This document shows, in pieces, positions 8,552 to 38,167 of a stretch of 40,334 nucleotides of DNA. This DNA comes from an uncultured bacterium (GTDB taxonomy: Bacteria; Hinthialibacterota; Hinthialibacteria; OLB16). The number at the start of each line of letters is the position of its first letter. Position 1 is the first letter of the stretch. Below the pieces are notes generated by a model. That model saw nothing but the letters and a program-made list of their open reading frames with translations, had not been told where the DNA came from and searched no databases. Position numbers and translations under genes: made by a program. The stretch lies in assembly GCA_964481775.1 (NCBI GenBank), contig CAYZUX010000023.1, positions 1 to 40,334 on the forward strand, read 5' to 3'.

Positions 8552-8616
8552 TGCAGTTTTTGTTAGTCCTGCAGTGTTAAAGTCTCCTTGGGTACCCTTT
8601 AAGCTCGACGCTAAGA

Positions 8617-14048: not shown

Positions 14049-14169
14049 TTTGGATGTAATAACTTTACCAGAACAAGTTGATCTCAGCATGTAATCATAC
14101 TCTTCGGCGAATAAAAATAGAGATGATCCATCAGAGCGATGTGAATAAGGTGTTGGATCATTCCGTCAA

Positions 14170-24553: not shown

Positions 24554-25348
24554 TAGTTTAACCTCCGAGATTAGAAATTCGAGTGACAAGAACCTAACTG
24601 GTTATGTTCACTTCGGTGTTGATTGAGGTTGATCTTAACTATTATTCGATTACAGAAAGCCAATAGTAAGGAAACGATTTCTACATGTCAAGCTTTATTT
24701 TAGAAAAAATTTCTTTTTTTTTGAGGGCTGAATTCTCTCCAAAAGAGGATATATTTGCGTCTGATTCATCCCAGAGAGAAAAAAAATTTGAGTTTTTCCT
24801 CTGATTTTTGTTGTCCTGGAAGATCATCGAGACACTTTTACTGGGTTAAGATATTCCTCCTCAGGCTGAGAGGACTTTAGTATGGAAAACGAATTTTCGA
24901 AGATCAAAGCCTTGGAATATTTCCGAAGAAAGGCTGCTCGTTTTCCTTCACTTTTTCACAAAACAAGGTCAACCGAGCTCAAGTCCCCCTGGAAAGACAT
25001 TTTATCGAATAACACCTTGATAATGCAGGTCTTAACAACAAATGAAGGGTACCCCCTTTCCCCATTTTATTCACCCACGGGGAGGTCTCACTCAAAAGGG
25101 AATAGCGCCGTTCCAAAACCAAGGCAGACCATCCGAGGATGAGGGCTGAGAAGATTAGGATTAGGAGTGGTGGCGAGACGATGAGTCGATCCTTGATGAA
25201 TCAAGCCAAGACAATATGACCTTACCAATGGTCCGTGAGTGAAAATCAGGCTAAGGCTGGTTAGAATTCGGATGCGTCTCGAAAAGGGGGCGTGCCATCA
25301 TCACTTTGATCATGCAAAATTTTTCGAGAAGTTCTACCATCGTTGCTA

Positions 25349-25377: not shown

Positions 25378-25433
25378 GCGGATTCAGTTTATTCATTTGG
25401 ACATAAAGAATGAGGAATGGAATAAGGATAACT

Positions 25434-26369
25434 ATGAATTCGTCCGTCTCAAATGGCTCGTGTCTTGCCCGCGTACGAGCCTATTGTCCACGTGAAGGTG
25501 GTTCAACGCAAAGAATTGCGAGGCAAATTCTTGAACACCCACAGGATGTTCTTCCAATGTCGATTGTCCAAATTGCAGGGGTTTGTGAAACCAGCCCCTC
25601 AACAGTGACACGTTTCTGCAGGATTCTGGGTTACTCAGGGTTCAAGGAATTCCAGCTCGATCTGGCGACAACGCTTGCTAACTATAGTCCTGATGTTGAA
25701 GAAAGTTTCGACAAGTCCGATTCGCCAGGTAGCATTATCAGGCGTGTATTTGAGCGTAATAAGCAAAGTCTGGAGGATACCCTGTCCCTGCTTGATGAAA
25801 AAACGATGGACAGGGTGGCTATTGCCTTGACAAGAGCAAGACGGATTTATCTGCTTGGGATCGGTGGTTCCGGTCTGGTGGCAAGGGAAGCGGCCCAGCG
25901 CTTTATGAGTCTGGGTTTGACTGCAATCGCTGTCTTCGATCCCTATGATCAGGTGTTCGCAACAAGTAATGTCGGGCGAGAAGATGTCATTTTTGGTATC
26001 AGTCATACGGGGCGGACTCTGTCAGTTCTCGAGGGAATCCGTGAAGCACGAAGACATCATGCCCATGTCATTGTAGTCACCAACTACCCTGATTCTCCTT
26101 TGGCAAAGGAATCTCATGAACGCCTGATCACCTCTTATCGGGAACACCGTTTTAATGCCGCTGTATCCTCCTCGAGAATAGCGCAAATGTGCATTTTTGA
26201 CGCCCTCTATTTTATGGTCGGAAGTCGTACTTCCGAGGAGGCAAGAAGGCTTGCAAAATCAGCCGAAGAGAGGGTGCAACGGTTGTTGAGAAATCGATAT
26301 TCACGGACATCCGTTGCAACAAAAGACCGCTCTGTACCTTCAGAGGAAAAAATGATGAGTGATGAATGA
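25434..26369 (+). CDS. RpiR/MurR-family transcriptional regulator (N-terminal HTH_6 + C-terminal SIS sugar-phosphate-binding domain)
   Basis: The ORF track starts at 25410. The Met at 25434 has AAGGATAA 4 nt upstream. The HTH is …STQRIARQILEHPQDVLPMSIVQIAGVCETSPSTVTRFCRILGYSGFKEFQ. The SIS domain is …RRIYLLGIGGSGLVAREAAQRFMSLGL…VIFGISHTGRT…. Confidence 0.8.
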   Translation: MNSSVSNGSCLARVRAYCPREGGSTQRIARQILEHPQDVLPMSIVQIAGVCETSPSTVTRFCRILGYSGFKEFQLDLATTLANYSPDVEESFDKSDSPGSIIRRVFERNKQSLEDTLSLLDEKTMDRVAIALTRARRIYLLGIGGSGLVAREAAQRFMSLGLTAIAVFDPYDQVFATSNVGREDVIFGISHTGRTLSVLEGIREARRHHAHVIVVTNYPDSPLAKESHERLITSYREHRFNAAVSSSRIAQMCIFDALYFMVGSRTSEEARRLAKSAEERVQRLLRNRYSRTSVATKDRSVPSEEKMMSDE

Positions 26370-26472
26370 GGGTTATCAGGGAGGATAACAGGGACAAGAA
26401 AAAACCGCTTGGTTTTGATTATTAGTGGAGCCTGCTGGTCATCTCAATAAAATTACAGGAGGAATATCAAAG

Positions 26473-27822
26473 ATGTATACGCGTTACTATGATCCAGAAA
26501 TCTTCATCCAGATGCTGGATGGCATTGATCTGGATGATCATGTGGTTGCTTCATATTATCTGAAAGACCGGATAGAGGGACAGAAGTGGCTTGACCATTT
26601 TGCTCTTATCCAGGCCATGGGGCTTGAGGGTTCCACGGGAACATGGGAAAAAGTGGAGGAAGACACCGCTGATGTGCGAATTGCGATGTCCAGCAAGATG
26701 GTGGGATACCACGAGATTCCGGCCGAGGATCCTTACACGAAGTCAGCCGTGGTTCAGTTGGCATTTCCGATCCGGGCATGGGGTGATAACCTCCCGATGA
26801 TGTTACTTGCAATTGCTGGTAATTGCTTTGCCTATTCAAAAAATATCATGTTGACAGACCTCTTTATAGGAAAGAACCTGTTAAAAATGTTTAAGGGGCC
26901 GAAGTTTGGTGTTCAAGGTGTTCGTGAACTGACTGGTGTTAAAGACCGTCCACTCTCTCTTCACATCATCAAGCCGAAGATGGGGATGACACCGGAACAG
27001 ACCGCCAACCAGGTGGCACAAACAGCTGCTGGCGGAGCGGACATGTGTAAAGATGATGAGATGCTGGCCGATGCATACAATAATACTATGGAACAACGTC
27101 TTCCTCTGGTTATGGAAGCGATCAACCGTGCCGCTGATAAAACGGGCAAGAAGATGATTTACCTTTGCAGCATCACTGATGAAAGTCAGAAAATGATCGA
27201 TAAGGCGAAAAAAGCTATAGAGCTCGGGGCAAATGGACTTCTCGTGACCTATTCAGCCGGTCTTGCAGCCTTGCGGAAACTGACTTCTGATCCTGATATC
27301 ACAGTTCCGGTAATGCTCCATGCCTCTCATATGATCGCCATGATGAAACAAATTGCCTGGCCTGTGCTGGCGAAACTGTGTCGTCTGTGCGGGGCCGATC
27401 TCATGTTGACACCGACGATCTGGTCATCCATTCCGATGGTATCAATGGAGGAGGGAATTCGGACTTCTTTCATGCAGCTGGCTCCATGGGGACATATCAA
27501 ACCAACTTTCCCGATGCCATGTGCCGGTGTCTATCCTGGGCTGGCTCCAATCATTATCGGCGAGTATGGAACTGATATCGTAATCCCTGCGGGTGGCGGT
27601 ATGCTTGGTCATCCAGATGGTTACACAGCGGGTGCGAAAGCTTGGAGACAGGCAATCGATGCGGCACTGTCCAATGAGAACTTTATCGATTACGCCAAAA
27701 AACCAGAAAACAAGGAATTAAGACGCGCGATCGAGAAATGGGGCTATATTGAACGACCCAAATCACCTTGGTTGCGTGTGGCTCCTGAGTTTCATCCAAA
27801 AACGATGAAGTTTGATGACTGA
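26473..27822 (+). CDS. RuBisCO large-subunit homologue, RuBisCO-like protein (form IV-like; not predicted to be a carboxylase)
   Basis: The ORF track starts at 26425. The Met at 26473 (MYTRYYDP…) has an AGGAGGAA RBS. A by-eye alignment to form I RbcL gives [11 protein letters not shown] vs STGTWTTVWTD; GNCFAYS…[37 protein letters not shown] vs GNVFGF…[47 protein letters not shown] vs GGLDFTKDDE; and …[27 protein letters not shown] vs …[26 protein letters not shown]. Positions equivalent to H294/R295, H327, K334 and S379 appear substituted (LHASH, [16 protein letters not shown], PCAGV). Confidence 0.8.
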   Translation: [449 protein letters not shown]

Positions 27823-27893
27823 TGCCGCCTGCATCCTTATGGATAGTTGAGTGAAATGAGGATGATAACGTCTGGATGATGGGGAGCAAATTG

Positions 27894-29378
27894 ATGGATC
27901 GGAATTATTACCTTGCGATAGACCTGGGTGCCGAAAGTGGTCGCGCTGTAATAGGGTCGATTGATGAGGGAAAACTGATGGTTGAGGAAATCCATCGATT
28001 CCCGAATGCTCCCGTAACCATATGTGGAACATTGTACTGGGACATCTTGAATATCTATGCCAATATCATTGAATCCCTGGATCGGTACCAACAACGATTT
28101 GGGGATTCAGTGAATGGCATTGGCATCGACAGCTGGGCAGTTGACTTTGGCTTGATTGATCGATATGGGAACCTTCTTCAAAATCCAGTCTGTTATCGTG
28201 ACTCCCGGACAGAAGGGATGTTTGAAAGAGTTGAGAAATCACTGTCAAAGAGAGAGGTATTTGACATTACTGGGATAGGTCTTATACCGATCTATACTCT
28301 CTGTCAGTTGAAATCATTGCGCATTCACCAGCCGGAATTGTTGAAATCAGCTGAAAAGCTCCTTTTGATCCCGGATCTTCTGAATTATTTTCTGTGCGGT
28401 AGTGTCGGCTGCGAACAGACAAATGCTATCACCACACAGCTTTATGACCCGCGCCAGGGTACCTGGAGTCATAAGATTTTTGACCTGATGGATTTTCCGT
28501 ATTCCATAATGGCCGATATCAACGCTCCTGGTACCTATTTGGGGGAACTGAGAGATTCCATCAAAGTCCAAACAGGTCTACGAAATGCTCCGGTAGTTTC
28601 TGTTTGCTCACATGATACTGGTTCTGCAGTTGCTGCTGTTCCAGCAGCAGTGGAAAATTATGGTTTTATCAGTTCCGGAACATGGTCTGTTGTCGGAATG
28701 ATGACGGGTGAGTTGATAACCACTGACGAGGCATTTTCCGCCAATGTCTGCAACGAACTGACAGCGGAGGGATTATTCCTGTGCCGTAACATAATGGGTT
28801 TGTGGTTGTTACAGCAAGCTCGCGCTGCATGGAGACGCAAAGGCATATCATATAGTTATGACGATCTGGTTCATTTGGCAGGTGAGGCTCCCCGTTCAGG
28901 ACCTCTTGTAATGGTTGATGATCCGACGTTCCTTCATCCAACAGACATGGTGGAGGCAATTCGTGTGTTTTGCCAGAAGACAGGACAGAAATCGATTTCA
29001 TCCGATGCTGGCTTTGTCTGCTGTATACTTGAAAGTCTGGCATTGGCGTACCGTCAGGCGCTAAACCAGATTCATCGCATCACCGGTCGTAGAAGTGAAA
29101 TCCTCCACATCGTTGGAGGGGGTGCTCTAAACTCTGTTTTGTGTCAATATACTGCAAACGCCACGGGAATAACCGTTTTGGCAGGTCCTCAGGATGCGAC
29201 TGCAACAGGCAATATCCTGGTTCAGGCACTATCACGCGGTGATTTGAAATCAATCAAGGAAATCCATGAAGTTGTTCGATCCTCAAGTCGTTTGGTTCAA
29301 TATGAACCATGTGACAATAAATATTGGGAAGATCGAATTGCCTACTACAATAAAATAATCAAAACACCTGAAGATTGA
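27894..29378 (+). CDS. FGGY-family carbohydrate kinase, rhamnulokinase (RhaB)-like
   Basis: The ORF track starts at 27876. The Met at 27894 has a GGGAG RBS. The N-terminus MDRNYYLAIDLGAESGRAVIG…EIHRFPNAP…GTLYWDI and IDSWAVDFGLIDRYGNLL match the RhaB pattern (VAVDLGASSGRVM…EIHRFNN…WDVD; IDTWGVDF). The length (~494 aa) fits. Confidence 0.75.
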   Translation: MDRNYYLAIDLGAESGRAVIGSIDEGKLMVEEIHRFPNAPVTICGTLYWDILNIYANIIESLDRYQQRFGDSVNGIGIDSWAVDFGLIDRYGNLLQNPVCYRDSRTEGMFERVEKSLSKREVFDITGIGLIPIYTLCQLKSLRIHQPELLKSAEKLLLIPDLLNYFLCGSVGCEQTNAITTQLYDPRQGTWSHKIFDLMDFPYSIMADINAPGTYLGELRDSIKVQTGLRNAPVVSVCSHDTGSAVAAVPAAVENYGFISSGTWSVVGMMTGELITTDEAFSANVCNELTAEGLFLCRNIMGLWLLQQARAAWRRKGISYSYDDLVHLAGEAPRSGPLVMVDDPTFLHPTDMVEAIRVFCQKTGQKSISSDAGFVCCILESLALAYRQALNQIHRITGRRSEILHIVGGGALNSVLCQYTANATGITVLAGPQDATATGNILVQALSRGDLKSIKEIHEVVRSSSRLVQYEPCDNKYWEDRIAYYNKIIKTPED

Positions 29379-29409
29379 TTCTTAAAAGAATGATCAGGAG
29401 GAAAGAAAG

Positions 29410-30396
29410 GTGCTTGCTGGACATTCATTCGGAGCTTGTTTACCCACATTCGGGAGTTGCGCGGATCGCTACTGCCTTGGCGGTTATGGTGGTGGGGGGG
29501 AAACCATCAAGGAGATGATAGACCTTTCCCTGAAGGTTAAAGGAATAGATGGGCTTGAACTGGTTGGTAATTGGCATGTCAATGATAACAATATACGTGA
29601 AATTGGAGCCATGTTCAAAGACAGGAATCTCAAAATTCCGATGTTGGTTCCAGACCTTTGGACACAGGCTAAATGGGGCAAGGGTAGTCTTGCTGCACCC
29701 GACGCAGTTACCCGGCAAGCGGCAATTGATGAAGTCCGCAAGGTGATGGATTGGGCGGCAGAGTTGAATTGTCCTTATGTGGATGTTTGGCCGGGTCAGG
29801 ATGGTTATGATTATTGCTTCCAGACTGATCACCTTGCTGCTTGGGAATGGCTACATGATGGTCTGGCAGCCTGTGCTTCTCATAATGATAAGGTAAAAGT
29901 TCTGGTCGAATACAAACTTAAGGAGCCAAGGACACATATTATTGTCAACAGTGCCGCAAAAACTCTCCTGCTCCTGGAAGATCTTCCCAATGTTGGCTGT
30001 CTACTGGATATTGGACATTCACTTGCCGCGGGAGAAAACATCGCGGAAGCTGCTTCACTACTAGCCCGTTATGGGAAGCTGGATTACCTTCACCTCAATG
30101 ATAACTATCGGTCTTGGGATGATGACATGATGCTTGGCTCGGTTCATCTTGTCGAGACCCTCGAACTGGCTTATTGGTTGAAACGATTGAACTATAATGG
30201 TTGGCTCACTCTCGATATTTTCCCTTACCGGGAGGATGGTGTTCGTGCCGCAACCCAGTGTTACCGGTGGATGGAAGCTCTGTTTTCATGTATTGAGCGT
30301 GTCGGGATGGACGAAATTGGATCAGTCATTAAGACAGGCGATGGATGTTCGGCAGTTGAAATTGTTCGGCGAGCATTTGGCCTGGAAAAAGACTAA
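29410..30396 (+). CDS. Xylose-isomerase-like TIM-barrel sugar (phosphate) isomerase/epimerase
   Basis: GTG start at 29410 with a strong AGGAGGAAAGAAAG RBS. The motifs …CLLDIGHSLAAGENI… and …LDYLHLNDN… are typical of the AP-endonuclease-2/xylose-isomerase-like (beta/alpha)8 family, which includes ketose 3-epimerases, OtnI-type isomerases and L-rhamnose-isomerase relatives. Confidence 0.65.
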   Translation: MLAGHSFGACLPTFGSCADRYCLGGYGGGGETIKEMIDLSLKVKGIDGLELVGNWHVNDNNIREIGAMFKDRNLKIPMLVPDLWTQAKWGKGSLAAPDAVTRQAAIDEVRKVMDWAAELNCPYVDVWPGQDGYDYCFQTDHLAAWEWLHDGLAACASHNDKVKVLVEYKLKEPRTHIIVNSAAKTLLLLEDLPNVGCLLDIGHSLAAGENIAEAASLLARYGKLDYLHLNDNYRSWDDDMMLGSVHLVETLELAYWLKRLNYNGWLTLDIFPYREDGVRAATQCYRWMEALFSCIERVGMDEIGSVIKTGDGCSAVEIVRRAFGLEKD

Positions 30397-30470
30397 TCTC
30401 ATTGTCCAAGATTGATTTCAATAAAAATCTGATAATGGCTGAGATGGCTGATACTTTAAATGTGAATATT

Positions 30471-30499
30471 TTCTTCACATGGATTCCACGCGGTATAAT
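30471..30499 (+). promoter_or_regulatory. Candidate promoter with consensus -10 hexamer in the 183-bp gap upstream of the lipoyl/E1/BMC gene string
   Basis: TATAAT at 30494-30499 with a weak -35 (TTCTTC, or TTCACA at non-ideal spacing). This is a by-eye match only. Confidence 0.2.
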
Positions 30500-30579
30500 T
30501 TCATGATAAGAATAGATCCGAAACTTCATGACCGGGATAGGGTCAGTCGGTTTCTTTGTTCAAAGGATGGGAATAGTAC

Positions 30580-31053
30580 ATGGTAGTTGCAATCAAAGTA
30601 CCAGACATGGGAACAACTGTGGATACAGTTATTTTAACAACCTGGCTGGTCAAAGAAGGCGAACATATTTCTCGTGGAGATCCAATTGCGGAAATTCAGA
30701 CTGATAAAGCGAATGTACAGCTTGAATCCGTTGCAGAAGGGATTCTCTTGAAGTGTATTGTGGAGGAGAATACAGAGCTTTCGGTAGGCCAAATTCTTGC
30801 CTACATTGGTTCGGCTGGGGAAATTATCGATGATGCGGCAATACCGGATTCCTCCTGTAATCCTGTTAAAAATGAGCAGTTTACTACAAGTCCAGAATCC
30901 TCATCGATAATATCAGTTCATGAAAACCCAACTGGTGAAGCTGCTGGTGATTCAGGTAAGTCTAATGACGGGAAAAAACGGGTCAAGGGTTCAACTCCGG
31001 TTTCGAAGATGGTCCGTAACCTGGCCCGGAAACACCAATTGGATTTGAATTAA
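30580..31053 (+). CDS. Lipoyl-domain protein with linker and the N-terminal half of a peripheral-subunit-binding domain (E2-like, lacking any catalytic acyltransferase domain); reads in frame into E1-alpha across a TAA
   Basis: The lipoyl-lysine motif is IAEIQTDKANVQLES within MVVAIKVPDMGTTVDTVILTTWLVKEGEHISRGD…. A Pro/Ser/Ala-rich linker follows, then GSTPVSKMVRNLARKHQLDLN-stop. The PSBD consensus (…RKLA.[23 protein letters not shown]) continues directly after the stop as VRGTGKGGSITREDV in the same frame. Confidence 0.75.
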   Translation: MVVAIKVPDMGTTVDTVILTTWLVKEGEHISRGDPIAEIQTDKANVQLESVAEGILLKCIVEENTELSVGQILAYIGSAGEIIDDAAIPDSSCNPVKNEQFTTSPESSSIISVHENPTGEAAGDSGKSNDGKKRVKGSTPVSKMVRNLARKHQLDLN

Positions 31054-31098
31054 GTCCGGGGCACAGGGAAGGGCGGAAGCATTACTCGTGAGGATGTA

Positions 31099-32100
31099 AT
31101 GCGTTTGGTGAACTCCACATCACCTGTGACTCCCATACCTGATGAAAACGATCCTTCATTTCTACTTGATCTTTACCGGAAAATGCTTCTGATCCGAAGG
31201 TTTGAAGAGCGCGTCAAATACCTTTTCCTTGAAGGTATCATGCCGGGTACCATTCATCAGTATCAGGGTGAGGAGGCTGTGGCGGTAGGAGTATGTGCCA
31301 CACTTAACCGGGATGACATCATAACAAGCACGCACCGTCCGCATGGTCACGCAATAGCCAAGGGGATTCCCATCAATTCATTGCTCAATGAATTGTTCGG
31401 AAAGACAACGGGTTGTTGTCGTGGTAAGGGAGGTTCGATGCATGTGGGCGATCTGGAACTGGGCATGGTTCCTGCCATTGCCATTGTGGGTGGAAATGTC
31501 CCACTGGCAACAGGTTGTGCTCTTGCATTTAAGATGAGGGGAGAATCGAGGGTAGCGGTTTCCTTCATGGGCGACGGAGCCATTAATGAAGGTGCCTTTC
31601 ATGAGGGTGTGAACATGGGTGCTATCTGGTCACTTCCTGTAATCTACGTTATCGAAAATAACCTGTACTCAGCATCGACACCGATTGGGAGCACAGTTAA
31701 GTTGTCAAAACTCTCTGATCGGGCCTTAGGCTATGGAATCCCTGGTGTCACTATTGATGGAAATGATGTCATGGAGGTCTACCGTGCAAGCCGTGAAGCT
31801 GTGGACCGTGCTCGAAAGGGGAAAGGTCCTACGCTGATCGAAGCCATCACCTATCGAATAACTGGTCACTCACGACGCGATCCCTGTAATTACCAGCCGG
31901 AAGAAGAGCGCAATGAGGCGATAAAGAAAGAACCAATTGGGCGATTTGAAAAACACCTGATTGAAACTGGCCTTATCAACCGGGATCAACTGAACCAGAT
32001 TAGCAAGGAAATAGATTTAGAGATTGAAGAGGCTGTTCAGGAAGCCATAAATGGACCAGATCCAAAACCAGAAGACGCTTTACAAGATGTCTTTGTGTGA
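31099..32100 (+). CDS. TPP-dependent 2-oxoacid/acetoin dehydrogenase E1 component alpha subunit
   Basis: …LYRKMLLIRRFEERV…IHQYQGEEAVAVGVCATLNRDDIITSTHRPHGHAIAKG…. The TPP motif is GDGAINEGAFHEGVNMGAIWSLPVIYVIENNLY. It is in the same frame as the upstream lipoyl ORF, with a GAGGA RBS before the ATG at 31099. Confidence 0.85.
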   Translation: MRLVNSTSPVTPIPDENDPSFLLDLYRKMLLIRRFEERVKYLFLEGIMPGTIHQYQGEEAVAVGVCATLNRDDIITSTHRPHGHAIAKGIPINSLLNELFGKTTGCCRGKGGSMHVGDLELGMVPAIAIVGGNVPLATGCALAFKMRGESRVAVSFMGDGAINEGAFHEGVNMGAIWSLPVIYVIENNLYSASTPIGSTVKLSKLSDRALGYGIPGVTIDGNDVMEVYRASREAVDRARKGKGPTLIEAITYRITGHSRRDPCNYQPEEERNEAIKKEPIGRFEKHLIETGLINRDQLNQISKEIDLEIEEAVQEAINGPDPKPEDALQDVFV

Positions 32101-32115
32101 GAGAAGGAAAGAATT

Positions 32116-33132
32116 GTGTCAAAAAAATCGATTGCTGAAGCCTTGCGTGAAGGTTTGCGTGAAGAAATGTTACGCGATGAGAGGGTTTTCTGTATTGGTG
32201 AGGATATTGCCATCCCAGGCGGATGGGGAGGAGCCTTCACCGTTACCCTGGGTTTGGAAAGCGATTTTGCTGACCGGATGATTAATACACCCATATCAGA
32301 AAATGGTGCGTTTGGTGTGGCTTGTGGAGCAGCGATGATGGGGATGAGACCAATCGCCGATGTTCAATATGGGGATTTCCTGTTCTGCGCCATGGATCAG
32401 GTTGCCAACAACATTGCAAAATTACGATATATGTCTGGAGGCAAGCTCGAGGTCCCAATCGTCATGCGTGCACCTGTCGGAGCCACCGGACGCGGAGCAC
32501 AACACGCTCAGAATCTCGAATCTATCTTTCTCTCCATTCCCGGAATCAAAATAGTGTGTCCCGCGACTGCTTATGATGCCAAGGGCTTACTAAAAGCAGC
32601 TGTTCGTGATAATAATCCTGTTCTTATGTTTGAACATAAGTTACTTTATGGCTCAAAAGGGGCACGGGCTGAATCGGGCTCACTGGATGCATCCAGTGAA
32701 ATCCCGGATCATGATTATATTGTACCCATTGGCAAAGGTATTGTTCGACGGGAAGGCAGTGATGTGACCATTGTCGGGACCCTGTTGATGATGCATTACG
32801 CTTTGAACGCCGCGGAAGTACTTGCAGCTGAAGGAATAAGCGCGGAAGTTATCGATCCCAGATCCCTGAATCCTTTTGATTGGCCTATCCTGGAGAAATC
32901 GGTCAGGAAAACCACTCGGTTGGTGACCGTCGAGGAAGGTCCATGCTTTGGTGGAATTGGTGCGGAAATATCAGCAACTGTTTCCGAACGATTGGGGGAT
33001 TACCTGACTGCCCCGATTTCTCGTGTGGGTGCACCCAATATTCCCGTACCCTTTGCCCCCATCATGGAAAACTATTATCGTCCAGATGTAAATAAGATCA
33101 TTGAAACTGTCCGGCAAGTGTGTGATAATTGA
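32116..33132 (+). CDS. E1 component beta subunit (transketolase-like pyrimidine-binding and C-terminal domains)
   Basis: GTG start with a GAAGGAAAG RBS, 15 nt after the E1-alpha stop. Motifs include …VFCIGEDIAIPGGWGGAFTVTLGLESDFADRMINTPISENGAFGVACGAAMMGMRPIADVQYGDFL… and …HAQNLESIFLSIPGIKIVCPATAYDAKGLL…. Confidence 0.85.
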   Translation: MSKKSIAEALREGLREEMLRDERVFCIGEDIAIPGGWGGAFTVTLGLESDFADRMINTPISENGAFGVACGAAMMGMRPIADVQYGDFLFCAMDQVANNIAKLRYMSGGKLEVPIVMRAPVGATGRGAQHAQNLESIFLSIPGIKIVCPATAYDAKGLLKAAVRDNNPVLMFEHKLLYGSKGARAESGSLDASSEIPDHDYIVPIGKGIVRREGSDVTIVGTLLMMHYALNAAEVLAAEGISAEVIDPRSLNPFDWPILEKSVRKTTRLVTVEEGPCFGGIGAEISATVSERLGDYLTAPISRVGAPNIPVPFAPIMENYYRPDVNKIIETVRQVCDN

Positions 33133-33175
33133 TCAAATGCCAGATTTTTTAATATTATTCCGTTAGGATACTGAA

Positions 33176-33796
33176 ATGACTGAACTGCGTAGTTTTATCA
33201 TACTTGATAATCTTCAGGAACAGTTGGCCTCATTCATGGCATCGACTGTCCAGGGGTATATGCCAGTGGCAGGAATGGCTTCCTTGTTTGTGGAGGTAGC
33301 ACCGGGTATGGAGATTGTCAGATTGCTGGATCGAGCTGTAAAAGCAACCGGTGTCCGTCCCGCGATTCAGGTTGTCGAGAGAAACTTTGGTGCTTTAGAA
33401 GTTCATTCAGATTCCCAAGCCGATGTTCGCCAGGCAGGCCTGGCAATTCTGGAGGCACTGGGAATGACGGAGGAGGACAGGATGAAACCAAGAATCGCTT
33501 CGTCCACGGTCATCCGGAAGGTGGATCCCTATCATGCCTCATTAATTAACAAAAGTCGTTCAGGTTCTTTATTGCTTGCCGGTCAGACTTTGTTTATTCT
33601 CGAGACACAACCAGCCATGTATGCAGTGCTGGCGTCCAATGAAGCGGAAAAGGCCAGCAAAGTGACCCTGGTGGATATACGTCCATTTGGAAATTATGGA
33701 CGATTGTACCTGGGGGGGGATGAGGCTGATGTCGTGGTGGGAAGTCAGGCCGCGATAAACTCGTTAATCAATCTTTCTGGGAAAGAAACCAACTGA
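33176..33796 (+). CDS. BMC-T shell protein (tandem BMC-domain, probably permuted PduB/EutL-like)
   Basis: Two BMC-like halves. The second ends …[35 protein letters not shown], which matches the canonical BMC C-terminal pattern G.V..V.GDV.AV..A. Confidence 0.65.
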
Positions 33797-33810
33797 GAGG
33801 AGAAAGTAAA

Positions 33811-34116
33811 ATGGCGGATGCACTTGGGATGATCGAAACACAAGGATTTGCAGCGATGGTGGAGGCCTCGGATGCGATGGTCAAGGCTGCCAAGGTTGAG
33901 CTTGTGGGATATGAGAAGACAGGTGGAGGCTATGTTACAGCGATTATCAGGGGAGATGTGGCCGCTGTTAAAGCCGCCTGTGAGGCGGGAGAACGGGGTG
34001 CGCGGGGAGTGGGTCAAGTCATATCAATCCATATCATCCCACGACCCCATACGAATGTAGACCTGGTTCTTCCTTTAGGCCGCAAAGAGGAAGCCGCCAA
34101 AGAAGCCGGAAAGTAG
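33811..34116 (+). CDS. BMC-H shell protein (PduA/EutM-type hexamer)
   Basis: [64 protein letters not shown] is a textbook Pfam00936 single-domain sequence with a short charged C-terminal tail. Confidence 0.9.
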
Positions 34117-34123
34117 AATTTCC

Positions 34124-34420
34124 ATGCAGATTGGCAGAGTGATTGGAACTGTGGTATCCACCGCTAAAGAACCCATGTTGGAAGGCCGGAAGCTGCTGGT
34201 GGTTCGTTCCCTCGATCTGAATGCGAAGGCGACAACAGGTTATGTGGTGGCAGTTGATTCGGTGGATGCGGGGATTGGTGATGTGGTCCTTGTCGCTCAG
34301 GGAAGTTCAGCCCGTTTGACAGGTGCCACAAAGGACCGTCCATGCGATGCGGTGATAATCGGGATTGTGGATTCATGGGATGTTGGCGGCGTAACCAAAT
34401 ACAGGAAAAGTGAAGAATGA
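34124..34420 (+). CDS. BMC-P vertex protein (EutN/PduN/CcmL family)
   Basis: MQIGRVIGTVVSTAKEPMLEGRKLLVV…GYVVAVDSVDAGIGDVVLVAQGSSARL…AVIIGIVDSWDV follows the EutN/CcmL pattern. Its stop overlaps the AldDH start (ATGA at 34417-34420). Confidence 0.85.
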   Translation: MQIGRVIGTVVSTAKEPMLEGRKLLVVRSLDLNAKATTGYVVAVDSVDAGIGDVVLVAQGSSARLTGATKDRPCDAVIIGIVDSWDVGGVTKYRKSEE

Positions 34421-35793
34421 CCCAGCGACAGCCAGTGTCAAGCCAGTCCTTGTGTTCTCCCTCCGTCTCCAGTGAGGGACCATGTTTTCCCTGTGTCGAT
34501 GCAGCAGTCACACGTGCATGCACAGCTTTCGAGGCTATGTCTGGTATGAACCTCGATACTCGTATTCGTGTGGTGGCTGCCATGCGCCAGGCAGCCAGGA
34601 ATCATGTCAAGGAATTAGCTTCACTGGCGGTCGAGGAAACGGGGCTTGGAAGGGTTGAGGATAAGGTTCGAAAAAACCTGCTGGTCACTATCAAAACTCC
34701 CGGTCCGGAATTCCTGGAACCTGTCGCTCAAAGCGGCTCCCGTGGTTTGATGTTGATGGAACGGGCGCCTTATGGAGTGATAGCATCCATTATTCCCGTT
34801 ACCAATCCCACTACCACGGTAATCAACAATGGGATAGCCATGATCAGCGCAGGGAACGCAGTGGTTTTCAATGCTCATCCCGGGGCCAAACGATGTTCCA
34901 ACCGTTGCATAGAAATTCTTAACGAAGCGATTATGGGCGCAGGGGGTCCCCCTGATCTGTTGACGGCGATTCCAGATCCAACGATCGGGACAGCACAGGC
35001 GTTAATGCGCCATACGAAGATCGCTTTGCTGTGTGTCACGGGGGGACCTGGAGTTGTACGCGAAGCCATGAATTGTGGCAAGAAGGTGATCGCCGCGGGA
35101 GCAGGAAATCCTCCCGCGGTCGTCGATGAAACCGCTGACATAAGTAATGCGGCAAATTCCATTGTCGCTGGTGCTTCTTTGGATAACAACATCATCTGCA
35201 CGGACGAAAAGGTCGTGGTAGTTGTCGATTCCATCGCTGATGATCTGAAGCGTCATATGCTGGCCCTGAATTGCGTTGAAGTTTCCGGAATTGATTTGCA
35301 GCGAGTATGTCGCTCGATCTTCAAATCCATTGAGGGCCGTTTTGGAACAATAAATACGCAAATGGTGGGTAAGGATGCCAGTATGATTCTGTCCGGGGCA
35401 GGGATCAATTGCCCCGCAGAAACACGTTTGGCTCTTTGCGAGGTTGACCGGGATCACCCGCTCGCCTGGACTGAGCAACTGATGCCAATTCTTCCGATTG
35501 TCCGAGCCAAGGACGTGGATGAGGCCATTTCCCTGGCGGTTGCTTATGAAAATGGACGGCGCCATACAGCGACCATGCATTCCACGAACATAGAAAAGTT
35601 GAATAAGATGGCTCGGATAGCCAACTGTTCAATCTTTGTCATGAATGGACCCTCCTTTGCCGGCCTGGGAATGGGTGGCGAGGGATATGCCTCGTTTACA
35701 ATAGCCAGTCCGACTGGAGAAGGTCTGACAAGTCCGATCAGTTTTACACGTGAGCGCCGTTGTACTCTGGTCGACACGCTAAGAATCGTGTAG
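34417..35793 (+). CDS. CoA-acylating aldehyde dehydrogenase (PduP/EutE-like BMC signature enzyme) with ~40-aa N-terminal extension
   Basis: …ERAPYGVIASIIPVTNPTTTVINNGIAMISAGNAVVFNAHPGAKRC…; the catalytic Cys context is LDNNIICTDEKVVVV. The N-terminal MTQRQPVSSQSLCSPSVSSEGPCFPCVDAAVTRACTAFEAMSGM precedes the conserved core. Confidence 0.85.
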   Translation: MTQRQPVSSQSLCSPSVSSEGPCFPCVDAAVTRACTAFEAMSGMNLDTRIRVVAAMRQAARNHVKELASLAVEETGLGRVEDKVRKNLLVTIKTPGPEFLEPVAQSGSRGLMLMERAPYGVIASIIPVTNPTTTVINNGIAMISAGNAVVFNAHPGAKRCSNRCIEILNEAIMGAGGPPDLLTAIPDPTIGTAQALMRHTKIALLCVTGGPGVVREAMNCGKKVIAAGAGNPPAVVDETADISNAANSIVAGASLDNNIICTDEKVVVVVDSIADDLKRHMLALNCVEVSGIDLQRVCRSIFKSIEGRFGTINTQMVGKDASMILSGAGINCPAETRLALCEVDRDHPLAWTEQLMPILPIVRAKDVDEAISLAVAYENGRRHTATMHSTNIEKLNKMARIANCSIFVMNGPSFAGLGMGGEGYASFTIASPTGEGLTSPISFTRERRCTLVDTLRIV

Positions 35794-35923
35794 TCCATAC
35801 TATTTTCTGATAAAAAGAGTAGAGTTCAAGATTGTAATAAATTGGGTTAGTGATAATTATTGTACCATCAGATAAACTTGTCACCAGATAATCCAAACAT
35901 AAAATAAAACGGGAGATATTCGA

Positions 35924-36481
35924 TTGGCTGTACTTGGGATGGTGGAGTTTAACAGAATTGCTACTGGCATTCATGCAACAGATGCCATGGTGAAGGCAGC
36001 TGAAGTTGAACTTATCGAATCCAGACCGATTACACCGGGCAAGTATATCTCGCTCGTGACTGGAGATGTGGCTTCTGTGAGTGCTTCCGTCAAAGCGGGT
36101 ATTGAAACAGCGGGTCTTGATGGAGTGATTGAGTCCTTTGTGCTCCCAAACCTTCATCCGCAAATTTTGCCCGTGATGCAAGGATACAACCCGGTTCCTG
36201 ATAAGGAGGCGGTCGGTATACTCGAAACAACTGGTGTTGCCGCTATTATTACAGCAACAGATGCAGCTCTAAAGGAATCTCCCGTGATTCTCGTTCGTCT
36301 TCATCTGGGTCTTCACATTGGAGGAAAGGGTTACGCAGTACTTGTGGGTGAGATTGCGGATATCGAGTCTTCAATCATGGCGGGAACCCGACAGGCTGGA
36401 AATCAACTTATCGATAAGAAAATTATTCCGAATCCTTATGAGGAGATATACCAATACCTCATGAAGAAACCTCACTGGTAA
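35924..36481 (+). CDS. Fused double BMC-domain shell protein (non-permuted tandem, BMC-T-like pseudohexamer)
   Basis: Domain 1 is MAVLGMVEFNRIATGIHATDAMVKAAEVELIESRPITPGKYISLVTGDVASVSASVKAGIE. Domain 2 is AVGILETTGVAAIITATDAALKESPVILVRLHLGLHIGGKGYAVLVGEIADIESSIMAG. Both are BMC-H-like. Confidence 0.75.
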   Translation: MAVLGMVEFNRIATGIHATDAMVKAAEVELIESRPITPGKYISLVTGDVASVSASVKAGIETAGLDGVIESFVLPNLHPQILPVMQGYNPVPDKEAVGILETTGVAAIITATDAALKESPVILVRLHLGLHIGGKGYAVLVGEIADIESSIMAGTRQAGNQLIDKKIIPNPYEEIYQYLMKKPHW

Positions 36482-36497
36482 GGATGATAAACTCGAT

Positions 36498-36782
36498 ATG
36501 ATTCCTGCACGAGTTATTGGCAGAATGGTTCTCAATCAAACTCTGCCGGCATTTCAGGGAGTTCCCTTTCTTTTGGTGGAGCCCATTAATGAAAAAATGA
36601 TCACTTCGGGGGATTATATGGTTGTCTGTGACGCTATTGGTGCCAATCTGGGTGAAACGGTATTTCTCGCCCAGGGACGGGAGGCGACTTTCAATCTTCC
36701 CGACCCATTCAATCCGGCCGACATGACGATAATTGCCATAATTGACCAAATAACGACCGGTCAGGATTCTCAGAAGGAATAG
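36498..36782 (+). CDS. BMC-P vertex protein paralogue 2 (EutN/CcmL family)
   Basis: MIPARVIGRMVLNQTLPAFQGVPFLLVEP…GDYMVVCDAIGANLGETVFLAQG…MTIIAIIDQI. Confidence 0.8.
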   Translation: MIPARVIGRMVLNQTLPAFQGVPFLLVEPINEKMITSGDYMVVCDAIGANLGETVFLAQGREATFNLPDPFNPADMTIIAIIDQITTGQDSQKE

Positions 36783-36790
36783 TTCAAACA

Positions 36791-37063
36791 GTGAAAATTG
36801 CACGTGTTGTGGCCCATGTTGTCTCAACCCAGAAGGTGATCAAGTATCACGGGATGAAAACATTGCTGGTAAAACCGTTACGTCTGGATGGAAGTGAGGA
36901 GGGCTCCACTTTTGTTGCCATAGACCGGGTACAGGCTGGGATCGGTGATATGGTATTATTAATGCAGGAGGGCAGCTCTGCTCGTACAATGTTTTATGAT
37001 GAACAAATGCCTGCTAGAAGTGTGATTGTCGGGATTATTGATCACCTGGAGATTAATGAATGA
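36791..37063 (+). CDS. BMC-P vertex protein paralogue 3 (EutN/CcmL family)
   Basis: MKIARVVAHVVSTQKVIKYHGMKTLLVKPL…STFVAIDRVQAGIGDMVLLMQEGSSAR…VIVGIIDHLEI. Its stop overlaps the aldolase start (ATGA at 37060-37063). Confidence 0.85.
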   Translation: MKIARVVAHVVSTQKVIKYHGMKTLLVKPLRLDGSEEGSTFVAIDRVQAGIGDMVLLMQEGSSARTMFYDEQMPARSVIVGIIDHLEINE

Positions 37064-37824
37064 TGACTGAGCTCGACATAAGAAAGGCAATATGTGAGGC
37101 CGGTAAAAGGCTTTATCTAAAAAATCTTGTTGCTGCGACTGATGGAAATATCAGTGTTCGGATTGGACCTGATCGATATCTTTGCACCCCAAGCGGAGTT
37201 TCGAAATATGATATGGCCCCTCATCATATTCTTATTGCTGACGGGCGAGGGAAACGGATATCTGGCGAGGGTAAAGTAACCTCCGAGTTTTTTACTCACC
37301 TTGCGGCGTATGAAGAACGAGCTGATGTGAGGGCTGTGGTTCATGCCCACCCACCAAAGGCCGTCGGATTTTCACTGGCGGGTGTTTCCATGGCGGAGTG
37401 TGTATTACCGGAAGTGGTTTACACGATAGGCGGTATTCCAACCTCCACCTATGCGACACCAGCTACTAAAGAAGGAGGGGAATCCATCAGGGAATTGATC
37501 CGCAAGTGTGATGCTCTGGTGATGGACCGTCATGGCGCAATTACTGTCGGAGTCGATGTTTATGACGCTCTTTTCAAAATGGAAAAGATCGAACATGCGG
37601 CGGATACTCTACTGGTGGCGCATCTATTAGGAAAAATTCGGACATTGGATTCAGAACAAATCATAAAATTACAGGGAATCCGGAAGTCCTATGGCGTATC
37701 AGGATATGCATATCCCTGTCATGAAAAGTCCTCGACACAATCTGAAAAAAATAAAGACGGAAACGAATCCTCAGACTTGGATAATATTATTGAGGATACC
37801 TTGCGAATTCTGGGCGGTGGGTAA
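37060..37824 (+). CDS. Class II (metal-dependent) aldolase, L-fuculose-/L-rhamnulose-1-phosphate aldolase family, with C-terminal encapsulation-peptide-like extension
   Basis: …ATDGNISVRIGPDRYLCTPSG… and the zinc-ligand motif VVHAHPPKAV, with Glu in TSEFFTHLAAYEE. Beyond the ~210-aa core lies a low-complexity linker (KSSTQSEKNKDGNESS) and an amphipathic DLDNIIEDTLRILGGG tail. Confidence 0.85.
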   Translation: MMTELDIRKAICEAGKRLYLKNLVAATDGNISVRIGPDRYLCTPSGVSKYDMAPHHILIADGRGKRISGEGKVTSEFFTHLAAYEERADVRAVVHAHPPKAVGFSLAGVSMAECVLPEVVYTIGGIPTSTYATPATKEGGESIRELIRKCDALVMDRHGAITVGVDVYDALFKMEKIEHAADTLLVAHLLGKIRTLDSEQIIKLQGIRKSYGVSGYAYPCHEKSSTQSEKNKDGNESSDLDNIIEDTLRILGGG

Positions 37825-38167
37825 GATATTGGTAAAAAAAAAGGATCGTGGCATAAAGTAATTATTATGTAGCAACAAATACTTCATTCCAGAATTACTT
37901 CTATCGCAGGACAGAAAGACCAGAATCCATCACCATCACCCTATGGAAGAAGAGGGTGGAAAATTATGTAAAACAATTTGCAAAACCAAACCAATAGTTT
38001 ATTATTTGATGAGTATGTTCATGATTAATCAATAAAAAGCATGTGTCCAGATTTGACTATTTGATTTTTATTCCAGGTTGAGTTTTATCGATTAAAGACT
38101 AATGAAAACATGGACTTCCGGATTTATTCTTGTTTTAATATTATTAATCCAAACCAAGGAGACGGTT

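What the first reader, a model, noticed from the sequence alone, without database searches (positions are those of the whole stretch)
31021..31110. Single in-frame TAA inside a peripheral-subunit-binding domain: the lipoyl-PSBD module and E1-alpha read as one interrupted polypeptide
The lipoyl ORF (30580..31053) and the E1-alpha ORF (31099..32100) are in the same frame. Translating straight through gives …GSTPVSKMVRNLARKHQLDLN-[TAA]-VRGTGKGGSITREDVMRLVNSTSPVTPIPDEN…. The stop at 31051-31053 falls in the middle of a canonical PSBD (consensus …[29 protein letters not shown]…). A folded domain cannot straddle a terminator, so the ancestral gene was almost certainly a lipoyl-PSBD-E1-alpha fusion. 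Either (a) this is a recent nonsense mutation or sequencing error, (b) the stop is leaky or read through, or (c) the genes have been split, with E1-alpha re-initiating at the ATG 45 nt downstream, which has a GAGGA RBS. Other genes in the window terminate normally with TAA, TGA and TAG, so a reassigned genetic code does not explain it.
Basis: seen in the sequence. Interest (0 to 1): 0.7.

Follow-up and report, generated by a model that had tools for sequence, protein, structure and literature searches.

The report
Recent stop codon splits lipoyl-E1α fusion
A single C-to-T change has put a stop codon in the middle of a small binding domain and cut a three-part enzyme gene in two; near-identical bacteria from sister samples still carry the intact gene, so this is a young natural mutation and not a new decoding mechanism.

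Summary
ORF 30580-31053 (lipoyl domain) ends at TAA 31051-31053, in frame with the E1α ORF 31099-32100. Pfam detects the peripheral-subunit-binding domain (PSBD) only when the stop is bridged. A structure model puts codon 158 between the two PSBD helices.

The ancestral state was found directly. Two contigs about 99.97% identical to the window (JGI 3300022664; SRR6476074) and a 99.0% strain (ERR14964774) encode an uninterrupted 506-aa lipoyl-PSBD-E1α protein with CAA (Gln) at that codon. At least 14 more distant protein clusters (50-62% identity) have the same fusion.

The TAA allele recurs in a second assembly (JGI 3300022666). There it is again linked to a change 44 nt upstream (M143K), on a different flanking haplotype. 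It is therefore most likely a real, young, segregating nonsense allele and not a consensus error.

Readthrough and code reassignment have no support. TAA ends 7 other ORFs, one TAA is TAG in the sister strain, and no orthologue has a stop here.

The likely consequence (inferred) is a free lipoyl protein without a working PSBD, plus a complete E1α restarted at ATG 31099.

This is an ordinary kind of event. The E2-less fusion family and its microcompartment/RuBisCO-like context are the more interesting by-product.

The parts
30580..31053 (+). Truncated 5' ORF (157 aa): lipoyl domain, disordered linker and only the first helix of the PSBD; it ends at the premature TAA
   Evidence: Pfam Biotin_lipoyl residues 4-76, E 2.5e-18, with no E3_binding hit.
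30589..30807 (+). Lipoyl domain (residues 4-76); the lipoyl-lysine K43 of the TDKA motif is at 30706-30708
   Evidence: PF00364, 66 bits. D42/K43/A44 are nearly invariant in the family alignment. The AF2 model shows a beta-barrel over residues 3-77 with pLDDT 75-94.
30853..30990 (+). Flexible linker (residues 92-137)
   Evidence: pLDDT below 50 in the AF2 model. Length and sequence vary in the family alignment.
31012..31098 (+). Peripheral-subunit-binding domain (PSBD, residues 145-173 by Pfam; model helices at 143-151 and 170-180), cut in two by the stop
   Evidence: PF02817 is detected only when the stop is bridged. The halves match PSBD HMM positions 1-20 and 22-38. The invariant residues G161, G163, G166, R170 and D172 lie after the stop.
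31007..31007 (+). Linked derived SNP (A in the window and L001, giving K143; T in all intact alleles, giving M143)
31051..31053 (+). Premature stop TAA (codon 158); CAA (Gln) in L168, L169 and L002
31054..31098 (+). 45 nt that look intergenic but still encode the C-terminal half of the PSBD (VRGTGKGGSITREDV); identical in the intact alleles
   Evidence: no differences in this stretch.
31090..31094 (+). Fortuitous Shine-Dalgarno-like GAGGA (the codons for E-D of the conserved REDV motif), 4 nt before ATG 31099
   Evidence: Read. SD-like 4-mers are compared across 25 ORFs (here at -9/-8; in the other ORFs that have one, at -10 to -24, most often -11 to -14).
31099..32100 (+). E1α ORF (333 aa): a complete TPP-dependent E1α core with an N-terminal extension of about 14 residues compared with stand-alone E1α proteins
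   Evidence: PF00676 matched 1-300/300, E 5.5e-88. N-termini of stand-alone 319-aa homologues align to DENDPSFLL.
32116..33132 (+). E1β partner gene
   Evidence: Transket_pyr plus Transketolase_C. NCBIfam PDH E1β NF006667, 339.6 bits against a cut-off of 321.
25410..37824 (+). Context: a sugar-catabolic microcompartment locus (RpiR regulator, RuBisCO-like protein, rhamnulokinase-like FGGY kinase, xylose-isomerase-like TIM, the broken fusion, E1β, BMC-T, BMC-H, BMC-P, acylating aldehyde dehydrogenase, a tandem-BMC-domain shell protein, two BMC-P, class II aldolase)

Best explanation
The window carries a young, naturally occurring nonsense allele (CAA to TAA, Gln158 to stop) of a gene that normally encodes one 506-aa polypeptide: lipoyl domain, flexible linker, PSBD and E1α.

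Shown:
- The intact allele exists in essentially the same strain and in a 99% strain.
- The stop lies between the two helices of the PSBD.
- The 45 nt after the stop still encode the rest of the PSBD without a single change.
- The allele is seen in two assemblies and is linked to a second derived change 44 nt upstream (M143K).

Inferred:
- Translation stops at TAA and releases a 157-aa lipoyl protein whose PSBD cannot fold.
- Ribosomes start again at ATG 31099, by de novo initiation on the fortuitous GAGGA or by re-initiation after termination 45 nt upstream. This would make a complete E1α that still assembles with E1β.
- The net effect would be loss of the covalent and PSBD-mediated tether between the lipoyl swinging arm and E1 (or its PSBD partner). 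That is a partial or complete loss of function of this E2-less module, not a new decoding mechanism.
For: 1. L168 (JGI 3300022664) and L169 (SRR6476074) differ from the window at only 5 of 19,436 and 4 of 13,045 positions, with no indels. They have C at 31051 (CAA) and encode the 506-aa P0122.
2. L002 (ERR14964774, 99.03% identity) also has CAA. With L002 as outgroup, TAA and A31007 are the derived states.
3. L001 (JGI 3300022666) has TAA and A31007, but carries the FGGY codon of the intact haplotype. The stop is therefore present in a second assembly on a different background.
4; at least 14 protein clusters at 50-62% identity have the uninterrupted lipoyl-PSBD-E1α. The column of the stop is Q/S/T/R/K/L/A and never a stop.
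5; the PSBD is detectable only across the stop, and the stop lies between helices 143-151 and 170-180.
6; the ORF from ATG 31099 contains a full E1α.
7. L089 shows that a stand-alone lipoyl-PSBD protein plus a separate E1α is a viable arrangement in this family.
Against: - No reads were available, so allele frequencies and read-level support are unknown.
- I could not establish whether the window and L001 come from independent read sets.
- Expression of E1α from ATG 31099 is untested. The SD-like motif sits closer to the start (-9/-8) than most of those seen in this window (most often -11 to -14). A predicted hairpin also pairs the AUG, though the signal is weak (z = -2.0).
- The two derived changes lie only 44 nt apart in an otherwise almost identical 19 kb. 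That is unusual for independent mutations and hints at a short recombination tract or a multi-nucleotide event whose donor is unknown.
Confidence: 0.8

Rival explanations
1. Sequencing or assembly error: the organism really has CAA, and the T is a consensus artefact or a minority-strain base placed into the contig.
For: The window is metagenome-derived. Near-identical contigs from sister samples have C. Haplotypes appear shuffled between contigs, which chimeric consensus of co-occurring strains could also produce.
Against: The T occurs in two assemblies that differ elsewhere (window and L001). In both it is accompanied by the same second change at 31007. There are no indels or other signs of poor consensus over 19 kb. 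Even a 'minority-strain base' would still be a real allele.
Confidence: 0.07
2. A tolerated or even favoured gene fission: the TAA allele is maintained in the population because a free lipoyl carrier plus a separate E1α works well enough, or better, so the locus is a snapshot of domain fission and not a dying gene.
For: The family contains fused, lipoyl-only-fused and split members. L089 has a separate lipoyl-PSBD ORF, and other loci have stand-alone lipoyl ORFs next to E1α. The TAA allele sits on two different flanking haplotypes, and all four combinations exist, which suggests it has persisted long enough to recombine. The downstream ORF is a complete E1α with a start codon and an SD-like motif.
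Against: Unlike L089, this split destroys the PSBD, whose core residues are invariant in the family. The start codon and SD are accidental by-products of the REDVM coding sequence and are identical in intact alleles. No compensatory changes are seen. The closest relatives all keep the fusion.
Confidence: 0.1
3. Programmed or leaky readthrough of the TAA yields the full-length fusion, alone or together with the short product.
For: The frame is preserved and the downstream PSBD half is intact. A modestly stable local RNA structure is predicted (z = -2.0).
Against: The preserved frame and intact codons are explained by the youth of the mutation, since the flanks are identical to intact alleles. 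No orthologue has a stop at this column. TAA followed by G is also used at genuine gene ends in this window (35924-36481 and 37060-37824). From general knowledge of E. coli, UAA is the least leaky stop and UAAG is an efficient terminator. No suppressor tRNA is present in the window.
Confidence: 0.03
4. Reassigned genetic code in which TAA is a sense codon.
For: None beyond the in-frame stop itself.
Against: TAA ends 8 of the 25 large ORFs in the window, TGA 13 and TAG 4. The TAA that ends the xylose-isomerase-like gene is TAG in the sister strain L002, a stop-to-stop substitution. Gene lengths match the called orthologues.
Confidence: 0.005

Closest known systems
N-terminal lipoyl-linker-PSBD module of dihydrolipoamide acyltransferases (E2) of heterotetrameric-E1 complexes (PDH of Geobacillus stearothermophilus, acetoin dehydrogenase AcoC) and of E3-binding protein (protein X)
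   Same: Same domain order, lipoyl (PF00364), flexible linker, PSBD (PF02817). Residues 1-180 match E2 and E3BP models and PDB chains (NCBIfam TIGR01349, NF011457; 3duf_I, 1zy8_K).
   Different: There is no acyltransferase catalytic core. The module is fused directly to E1α. No E2 catalytic domain was found in any of 19 fusion loci or in the Pfam tables of the flanks.
AcoA/AcoB-type E1 (acetoin:DCPIP oxidoreductase, PDH E1α/β, heterotetrameric TPP enzymes)
   Same: The E1α part is 72-76% identical to stand-alone 319-aa E1α proteins that JGI names acetoin:DCPIP oxidoreductase or PDH E1α. PF00676 is matched over its full length. The GDG...NN TPP motif is present (read). E1β lies immediately downstream.
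   Different: It scores below the equivalog cut-offs of NCBIfam PDH E1α models (349.8 against 393.85 bits), so the substrate is unassigned. The nearest relatives have the gene order E2-E1α-E1β with a full E2 (61 loci), whereas here only the E2 N-terminal module survives, fused to E1α.
PdhB with N-terminal lipoyl domain (NCBIfam NF008854/PRK11892; from my own knowledge, the Zymomonas mobilis / alphaproteobacterial type described by Neveling et al. 1998)
   Same: A lipoyl domain is covalently fused to an E1 subunit. Residues 1-147 match positions 1-146 of that model.
   Different: That fusion is to E1β, not E1α. From my own knowledge those complexes keep a normal E2. I did not check whether they carry a PSBD in the fusion.
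Ordinary nonsense polymorphism, incipient pseudogene or gene fission
   Same: A single transition creates a stop. An intact allele exists in the same population. The flanks are unchanged.
   Different: The downstream part happens to retain a start codon, an SD-like motif and a complete catalytic subunit, so the result may be a two-gene operon and not a dead gene.
PVM / PVM-like bacterial microcompartment loci (Sutter et al. 2021, PMC8217296)
   Same: Class II aldolase signature enzyme, acylating aldehyde dehydrogenase, BMC-H/T/P shell genes and a sugar-kinase/isomerase context.
   Different: The catalogue text does not mention lipoyl, pyruvate dehydrogenase, acetoin or RuBisCO-like components. 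No PduL/Pta-type or alcohol-dehydrogenase gene is present among the ORFs scanned at 25410-39457.

Membership tests
Peripheral-subunit-binding domain (Pfam PF02817 E3_binding) | A contiguous domain of about 35 residues scoring above the Pfam gathering threshold within one polypeptide | tested here: not met
   Neither real ORF carries it. The 157-aa product has no E3_binding hit. Only half-matches are found, HMM positions 1-20 and 22-38, on either side of the stop. The bridged sequence scores 42.5-47.7 bits against 23.7, so the intact allele is a member and the window's products are not.
Peripheral-subunit-binding domain (Pfam PF02817 E3_binding) | Two-helix fold with a conserved GTG-x-GG-x-I-T-R-x-D loop/helix 2 | tested here: met
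   This holds for the intact allele. The model has helices at 143-151 and 170-180 with pLDDT 72-80 for residues 141-180. G161, G163, G166, R170 and D172 are invariant in 15 sequences.
Lipoyl domain (PF00364) | HMM match above threshold and a lipoyl-lysine in a DKA motif at the hairpin tip | tested here: met
   66.1 bits against 22.1. T-D-K43-A is present and nearly invariant. Actual lipoylation is not testable here.
TPP-dependent 2-oxoacid/acetoin dehydrogenase E1α (PF00676) | Full-length E1_dh domain, a TPP-binding GDG...NN motif and an adjacent E1β gene | tested here: met
   PF00676 matched 1-300/300, E 5.5e-88. GDGAINEGAFHEGVNMGAIWSLPVIYVIENN was read. E1β is at 32116-33132.
Pyruvate dehydrogenase E1α equivalog (NCBIfam TIGR03182 / TIGR03181) | Score at or above the curated equivalog cut-off | tested here: not met
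   349.8 against 393.85 bits, and 270.2 against 411.35 bits. Substrate specificity should therefore not be called pyruvate.
Complete 2-oxoacid/acetoin dehydrogenase complex operon | E2 catalytic (acyltransferase) domain and E3 encoded with E1 | tested here: not met
   The Pfam scans of the large ORFs in the window show no such domain. A custom catalytic-domain HMM finds nothing in the window or in 19 fusion loci. No 2-oxoacid_dh domain and no E3-type (Pyr_redox_2/Pyr_redox_dim) gene appears in the flanks listed; the only related entry is a faint Pyr_redox hit in an amine-oxidase/DAO-like gene of L005. The rest of the genome could not be examined.
Nonsense allele of an intact gene (recent pseudogenisation or fission) | A sense codon at the same position in near-identical DNA, with the reading frame and downstream codons unchanged | tested here: met
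   CAA in L168 and L169 (99.97% identical) and in L002 (99.0%). There are no differences in 31054-31098.
Programmed stop-codon readthrough | The stop is conserved at the same site in orthologues, with a readthrough-favouring context or element | tested here: not met
   No stop at this column in 15 aligned fusions. All 12 fetched loci with a full lipoyl-PSBD-E1α fusion (7 distinct genes) have one uninterrupted reading frame. TAA|G is also used at genuine gene ends in the window. Readthrough efficiency itself is not testable here.
Alternative genetic code with TAA as sense | TAA absent from genuine gene ends and present at conserved sense positions | tested here: not met
   8 of 25 ORFs end in TAA. 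A TAA/TAG stop-to-stop substitution separates the two strains.

The most novel reading that the evidence does not exclude
The TAA allele is not a dying gene but a domain fission caught in progress within a natural population. Fused (CAA) and split (TAA) alleles of an E2-less lipoyl-PSBD-E1α module would then co-exist and recombine. The split form would remain functional, with a free lipoyl carrier and E1α restarted at a pre-existing internal start, and possibly with a different distribution between the microcompartment lumen and the cytoplasm. A distant relative (L089) already has a fixed split arrangement, which makes this conceivable.
Probability: 0.12. Interest if true: 0.5.

Novelty: new member of a known kind. 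Interest (0 to 1): 0.3.

Why it matters
For annotation, the two ORFs should be flagged as one disrupted gene (Q158*). They should not be annotated as a 'biotin/lipoyl-binding protein' plus a 'PDH E1α'. The strain-level polymorphism gives a natural experiment for asking whether the PSBD tether matters.

More broadly, the analysis exposes a widespread lipoyl-(PSBD)-E1α plus E1β cassette. I found no description of it in the searchable literature. It lacks any nearby E2 core, and it recurs next to a RuBisCO-like protein and a xylose-isomerase-like enzyme. In this species it sits inside a PVM-like microcompartment locus that lacks the usual phosphotransacylase and alcohol-dehydrogenase recycling enzymes.

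That context, not the stop codon, is what a microcompartment or 2-oxoacid-dehydrogenase specialist might want to follow up.

Tried and rejected
- Exact-pattern scans across the stop (first stop base left free) in metagenome contigs and genome contigs found nothing. Those collections do not hold this species.
- Protein-based scans of the same collections gave only relatives at 74% identity or less. They were useful for the architecture survey but not for allele counting.
- Literature searches found no paper describing this fusion or the source samples. I searched for lipoyl/E1 in microcompartments, for lipoyl-E1α fusions, for RuBisCO-like proteins with microcompartments, and for the sample accessions. 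One search failed on a term that was too short.
- No tRNA, and hence no suppressor, is present in the window.
- RNA folding around the stop gave only a weak signal (z = -2.0). I do not build on it.
- I considered and rejected code reassignment and programmed readthrough.
- I first took the 73 loci with an 'upstream LIP/PSBD segment' for split fusions. Sizing the ORFs showed that 61 of the 69 with a full lipoyl match are complete E2 genes placed before E1α. Only L089 is a true lipoyl-PSBD/E1α split.
- I did not determine the organism's taxon. An N-terminal methylation-motif protein and the PVM-like locus hint at the PVC group, but this was not tested.
Full report
**1. Observation**

ORF 30580-31053 (157 aa) ends with TAA at 31051-31053. 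ORF 31099-32100 (333 aa) is in the same frame. Translating 30580-32100 gives one stop only, in ...ARKHQLDLN*VRGTGKGGSITREDVMRLV....

Pfam finds Biotin_lipoyl in the first ORF and E1_dh in the second. It finds E3_binding (the PSBD, PF02817) only if the stop is bridged. The match covers residues 145-173 and scores 42.5-47.7 bits against a cut-off of 23.7. An HMM I built from the family matches PSBD positions 1-20 just before the stop and 22-38 just after it.

An AlphaFold2 model of the intact protein (mean pLDDT 76) shows four parts:
- a lipoyl barrel (residues 3-77);
- a disordered linker (92-137);
- two PSBD helices (143-151 and 170-180);
- E1α from residue 192.

Codon 158 therefore lies between the two helices of a domain that cannot fold from either half.

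**2. The intact allele exists in the same population**

A protein search with the bridged sequence returned P0001, an uninterrupted 506-aa protein from Logan run ERR14964774. Its contig (L002) is 99.03% identical to window 27075-37875 and has C where the window has T at 31051, so CAA (Gln) against TAA.

A cluster look-up then found P0122, another 506-aa protein. It is encoded on JGI 3300022664 contig Ga0247854_1002658 (L168) and on a 29-kb SRR6476074 contig (L169).

These two contigs are 99.97% identical to the window, with 5 mismatches in 19,436 bp and 4 in 13,045 bp and no indels. The differences are:
- 28950 and 28952, in one FGGY-kinase codon;
- 31007, K143 against M143;
- 31051, stop against Gln;
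- 40315.

The 45 nt after the stop are identical in all alleles.

**3. The stop allele is seen twice and is linked to a second change**

JGI 3300022666 contig Ga0248168_1017656 (L001) carries the same 157-aa and 333-aa ORFs. It has T31051 and A31007 like the window, but carries the FGGY codon of the intact contigs.

With the 99% strain L002 as outgroup, TAA and A31007 are derived, and the FGGY ATT codon is derived. All four combinations of the two site pairs therefore exist: the window, L001, L168/L169 and L002. This means either recombination within the population or mosaic consensus of co-occurring strains.

Either way, the T is not a random consensus error of one assembly. The adjacent accession numbers suggest that the samples are sisters from one project. 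That is an inference, and I found no paper on them.

**4. The family**

At least 14 protein clusters at 50-62% identity have the same lipoyl-PSBD-E1α architecture. In an alignment of 15 sequences the PSBD residues G161, G163, G166, R170 and D172 are invariant, and all of them lie after the window's stop. The stop column itself is variable (Q/S/T/R/K/L/A) and is never a stop.

A survey of the 172 fetched loci plus the window showed the following:
- 12 loci with a lipoyl-PSBD-E1α fusion in a single reading frame. These are 7 distinct genes, because several loci are repeat fetches of the same contig.
- 7 loci with a lipoyl-E1α fusion lacking a PSBD.
- 61 loci in which a complete E2 (lipoyl-PSBD-catalytic, median tail 233 aa) precedes E1α. 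These include the nearest E1α relatives at 73-74% identity, which suggests the fusion arose by loss of the E2 catalytic domain. That is an inference.
- One true split, L089, a Planctomycetota MAG. It has a 161-aa lipoyl protein with a complete PSBD, a TGA, a 33-nt spacer, and then a 325-aa E1α starting at GTG.

Covalent fusion is therefore not obligatory in this family. However, the window's break differs from L089 because it destroys the PSBD.

**5. Rival explanations**

- **Code reassignment** is excluded. TAA ends 8 of the 25 large ORFs, TGA 13 and TAG 4. The TAA that ends the xylose-isomerase-like gene is TAG in L002.
- **Programmed readthrough** has no support. The stop is not conserved. 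Its flanks are identical to the intact alleles, so no dedicated element can have evolved. TAA|G also ends genuine genes in this window. From general knowledge of E. coli, UAA-G terminates efficiently. No tRNA gene lies in the window, and the local RNA fold is unremarkable (z = -2.0).
- **A pure sequencing error** is unlikely for the reasons given in section 3, but it cannot be formally excluded without reads.

**6. Most likely mechanism and consequence**

Shown: a CAA-to-TAA transition converts one gene into two ORFs.

Inferred: the first product is a lipoyl domain with a linker and an orphan helix, and so lacks a functional PSBD. The second ORF starts at ATG 31099. That codon and the GAGGA at 31090-31094 are accidental, since they are the codons of the conserved ...REDVM... 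and are identical in intact alleles. The second ORF encodes a complete E1α, because stand-alone 319-aa E1α proteins begin about 14 residues downstream of this Met.

SD-like motifs precede many genes here, most often at -11 to -14; this one is at -9/-8. E1α is thus probably still made, perhaps at a reduced level, and can pair with E1β (32116-33132). What is lost is the tether between the swinging lipoyl arm and E1, or whatever partner the PSBD recruits (E1β or an E3). The module would be expected to be impaired but not necessarily abolished.

**7. Context**

The gene sits in a PVM-like microcompartment locus. In order, the locus encodes:
- an RpiR regulator;
- a RuBisCO-like protein;
- a rhamnulokinase-like FGGY kinase;
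- a xylose-isomerase-like TIM protein;
- the fusion and E1β;
- BMC-T, BMC-H and BMC-P shell proteins;
- an acylating aldehyde dehydrogenase;
- a tandem-BMC-domain shell protein and two BMC-P;
- a class II aldolase.

Glycoside hydrolases, a fucose-isomerase-like gene and a sodium:solute symporter lie upstream.

No E2 catalytic domain or E3 is encoded in the window or near any fusion examined. The RuBisCO-like and xylose-isomerase-like genes accompany the cassette in unrelated MAGs that have no shell genes (L003, L091, L097). The microcompartment catalogue of Sutter et al. 2021 does not mention such components.

**8. Comparison with known systems**

- The N-terminal half is the lipoyl-PSBD module of E2/E3BP proteins.
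- The C-terminal half is an AcoA/PdhA-type E1α. It is 72-76% identical to stand-alone E1α proteins but scores below the NCBIfam PDH equivalog cut-offs.
- A lipoyl domain fused to an E1 subunit is known for E1β (NCBIfam NF008854, matched over residues 1-147; Zymomonas, from my own knowledge). I found no description of the E1α version with a PSBD.
- The stop itself is an ordinary nonsense polymorphism.

**9. Verdict**

The feature is a real, very recent nonsense allele that splits a conserved fusion gene. It is not a recoding event. Interest in the stop itself is low to moderate. The E2-less fusion family and its microcompartment/RuBisCO-like association are the more promising leads.

Noticed in passing
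window 26425-33132; L003 7510-12553; L091; L097: A RuBisCO-like protein and a xylose-isomerase-like TIM gene recur next to the lipoyl-(PSBD)-E1α plus E1β cassette in unrelated MAGs (an unnamed ENA contig, a Bryobacteraceae MAG and a Nitrospiraceae-labelled MAG). These MAGs have no microcompartment shell genes in the flanks fetched, which suggests a conserved and uncharacterised sugar-phosphate pathway module.
   Followed up: partly
window 25410-39457 and 19 fusion loci: No E2 catalytic (acyltransferase) domain or E3 is encoded near any lipoyl-E1α fusion examined. The window's microcompartment locus also lacks a PduL/Pta-type phosphotransacylase and an alcohol dehydrogenase among the ORFs scanned. 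It is therefore unclear how acyl-lipoyl, CoA and NAD+ are turned over.
   Followed up: partly
L089 3667-6205: A natural split form occurs in a Planctomycetota MAG (JAWXCH010000208.1). A 161-aa lipoyl protein with a complete PSBD ends in TGA. A 33-nt spacer in the same frame follows, then a 325-aa E1α from GTG 4186, then E1β.
   Followed up: yes
L010, L017, L024, L030, L055, L090 and others (61 loci): The closest E1α relatives (73-74% identity) have the gene order E2-E1α-E1β, with a complete E2 directly upstream that often overlaps E1α by a few bases. An in-frame deletion of the catalytic domain would produce the fusion.
   Followed up: partly
window 28950/28952 and 31007/31051: Differences between near-identical haplotypes come in tight pairs: two in one FGGY codon (GTG against ATT), and two 44 nt apart in the PSBD. 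All four combinations of the pairs exist among the window, L001, L168/L169 and L002. This points to short recombination tracts, multi-nucleotide events or mosaic consensus.
   Followed up: partly
L145 7979-10261 (Steroidobacter gossypii S1-65), also L143: A stand-alone lipoyl ORF lies just upstream of E1α in another frame. The stop-to-stop segment containing E1α is 761 codons long, possibly an E1α-E1β fusion.
   Followed up: no
L047, L048, L063, L095, immediately upstream of E1α: Short matches to only the first 25 positions of the lipoyl HMM occur in a different frame about 47 nt upstream of the E1α reading frame's open stretch. They could be remnants of a lost lipoyl domain or chance matches.
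   Followed up: no
window 31080-31101: A predicted RNA hairpin pairs the E1α start codon (GUAAUG) with CAUUAC and leaves the GAGGA in the loop. The overall z-score is only -2.0.
   Followed up: no
window 5363-8674, 10716-14090, 14170-16437, 22898-24589 (all on the - strand): Four large ORFs (563-1124 aa) have no Pfam match at E <= 1e-5. They lie among glycoside hydrolases, a fucose-isomerase-like gene and a sodium:solute symporter upstream of the microcompartment locus.
   Followed up: no
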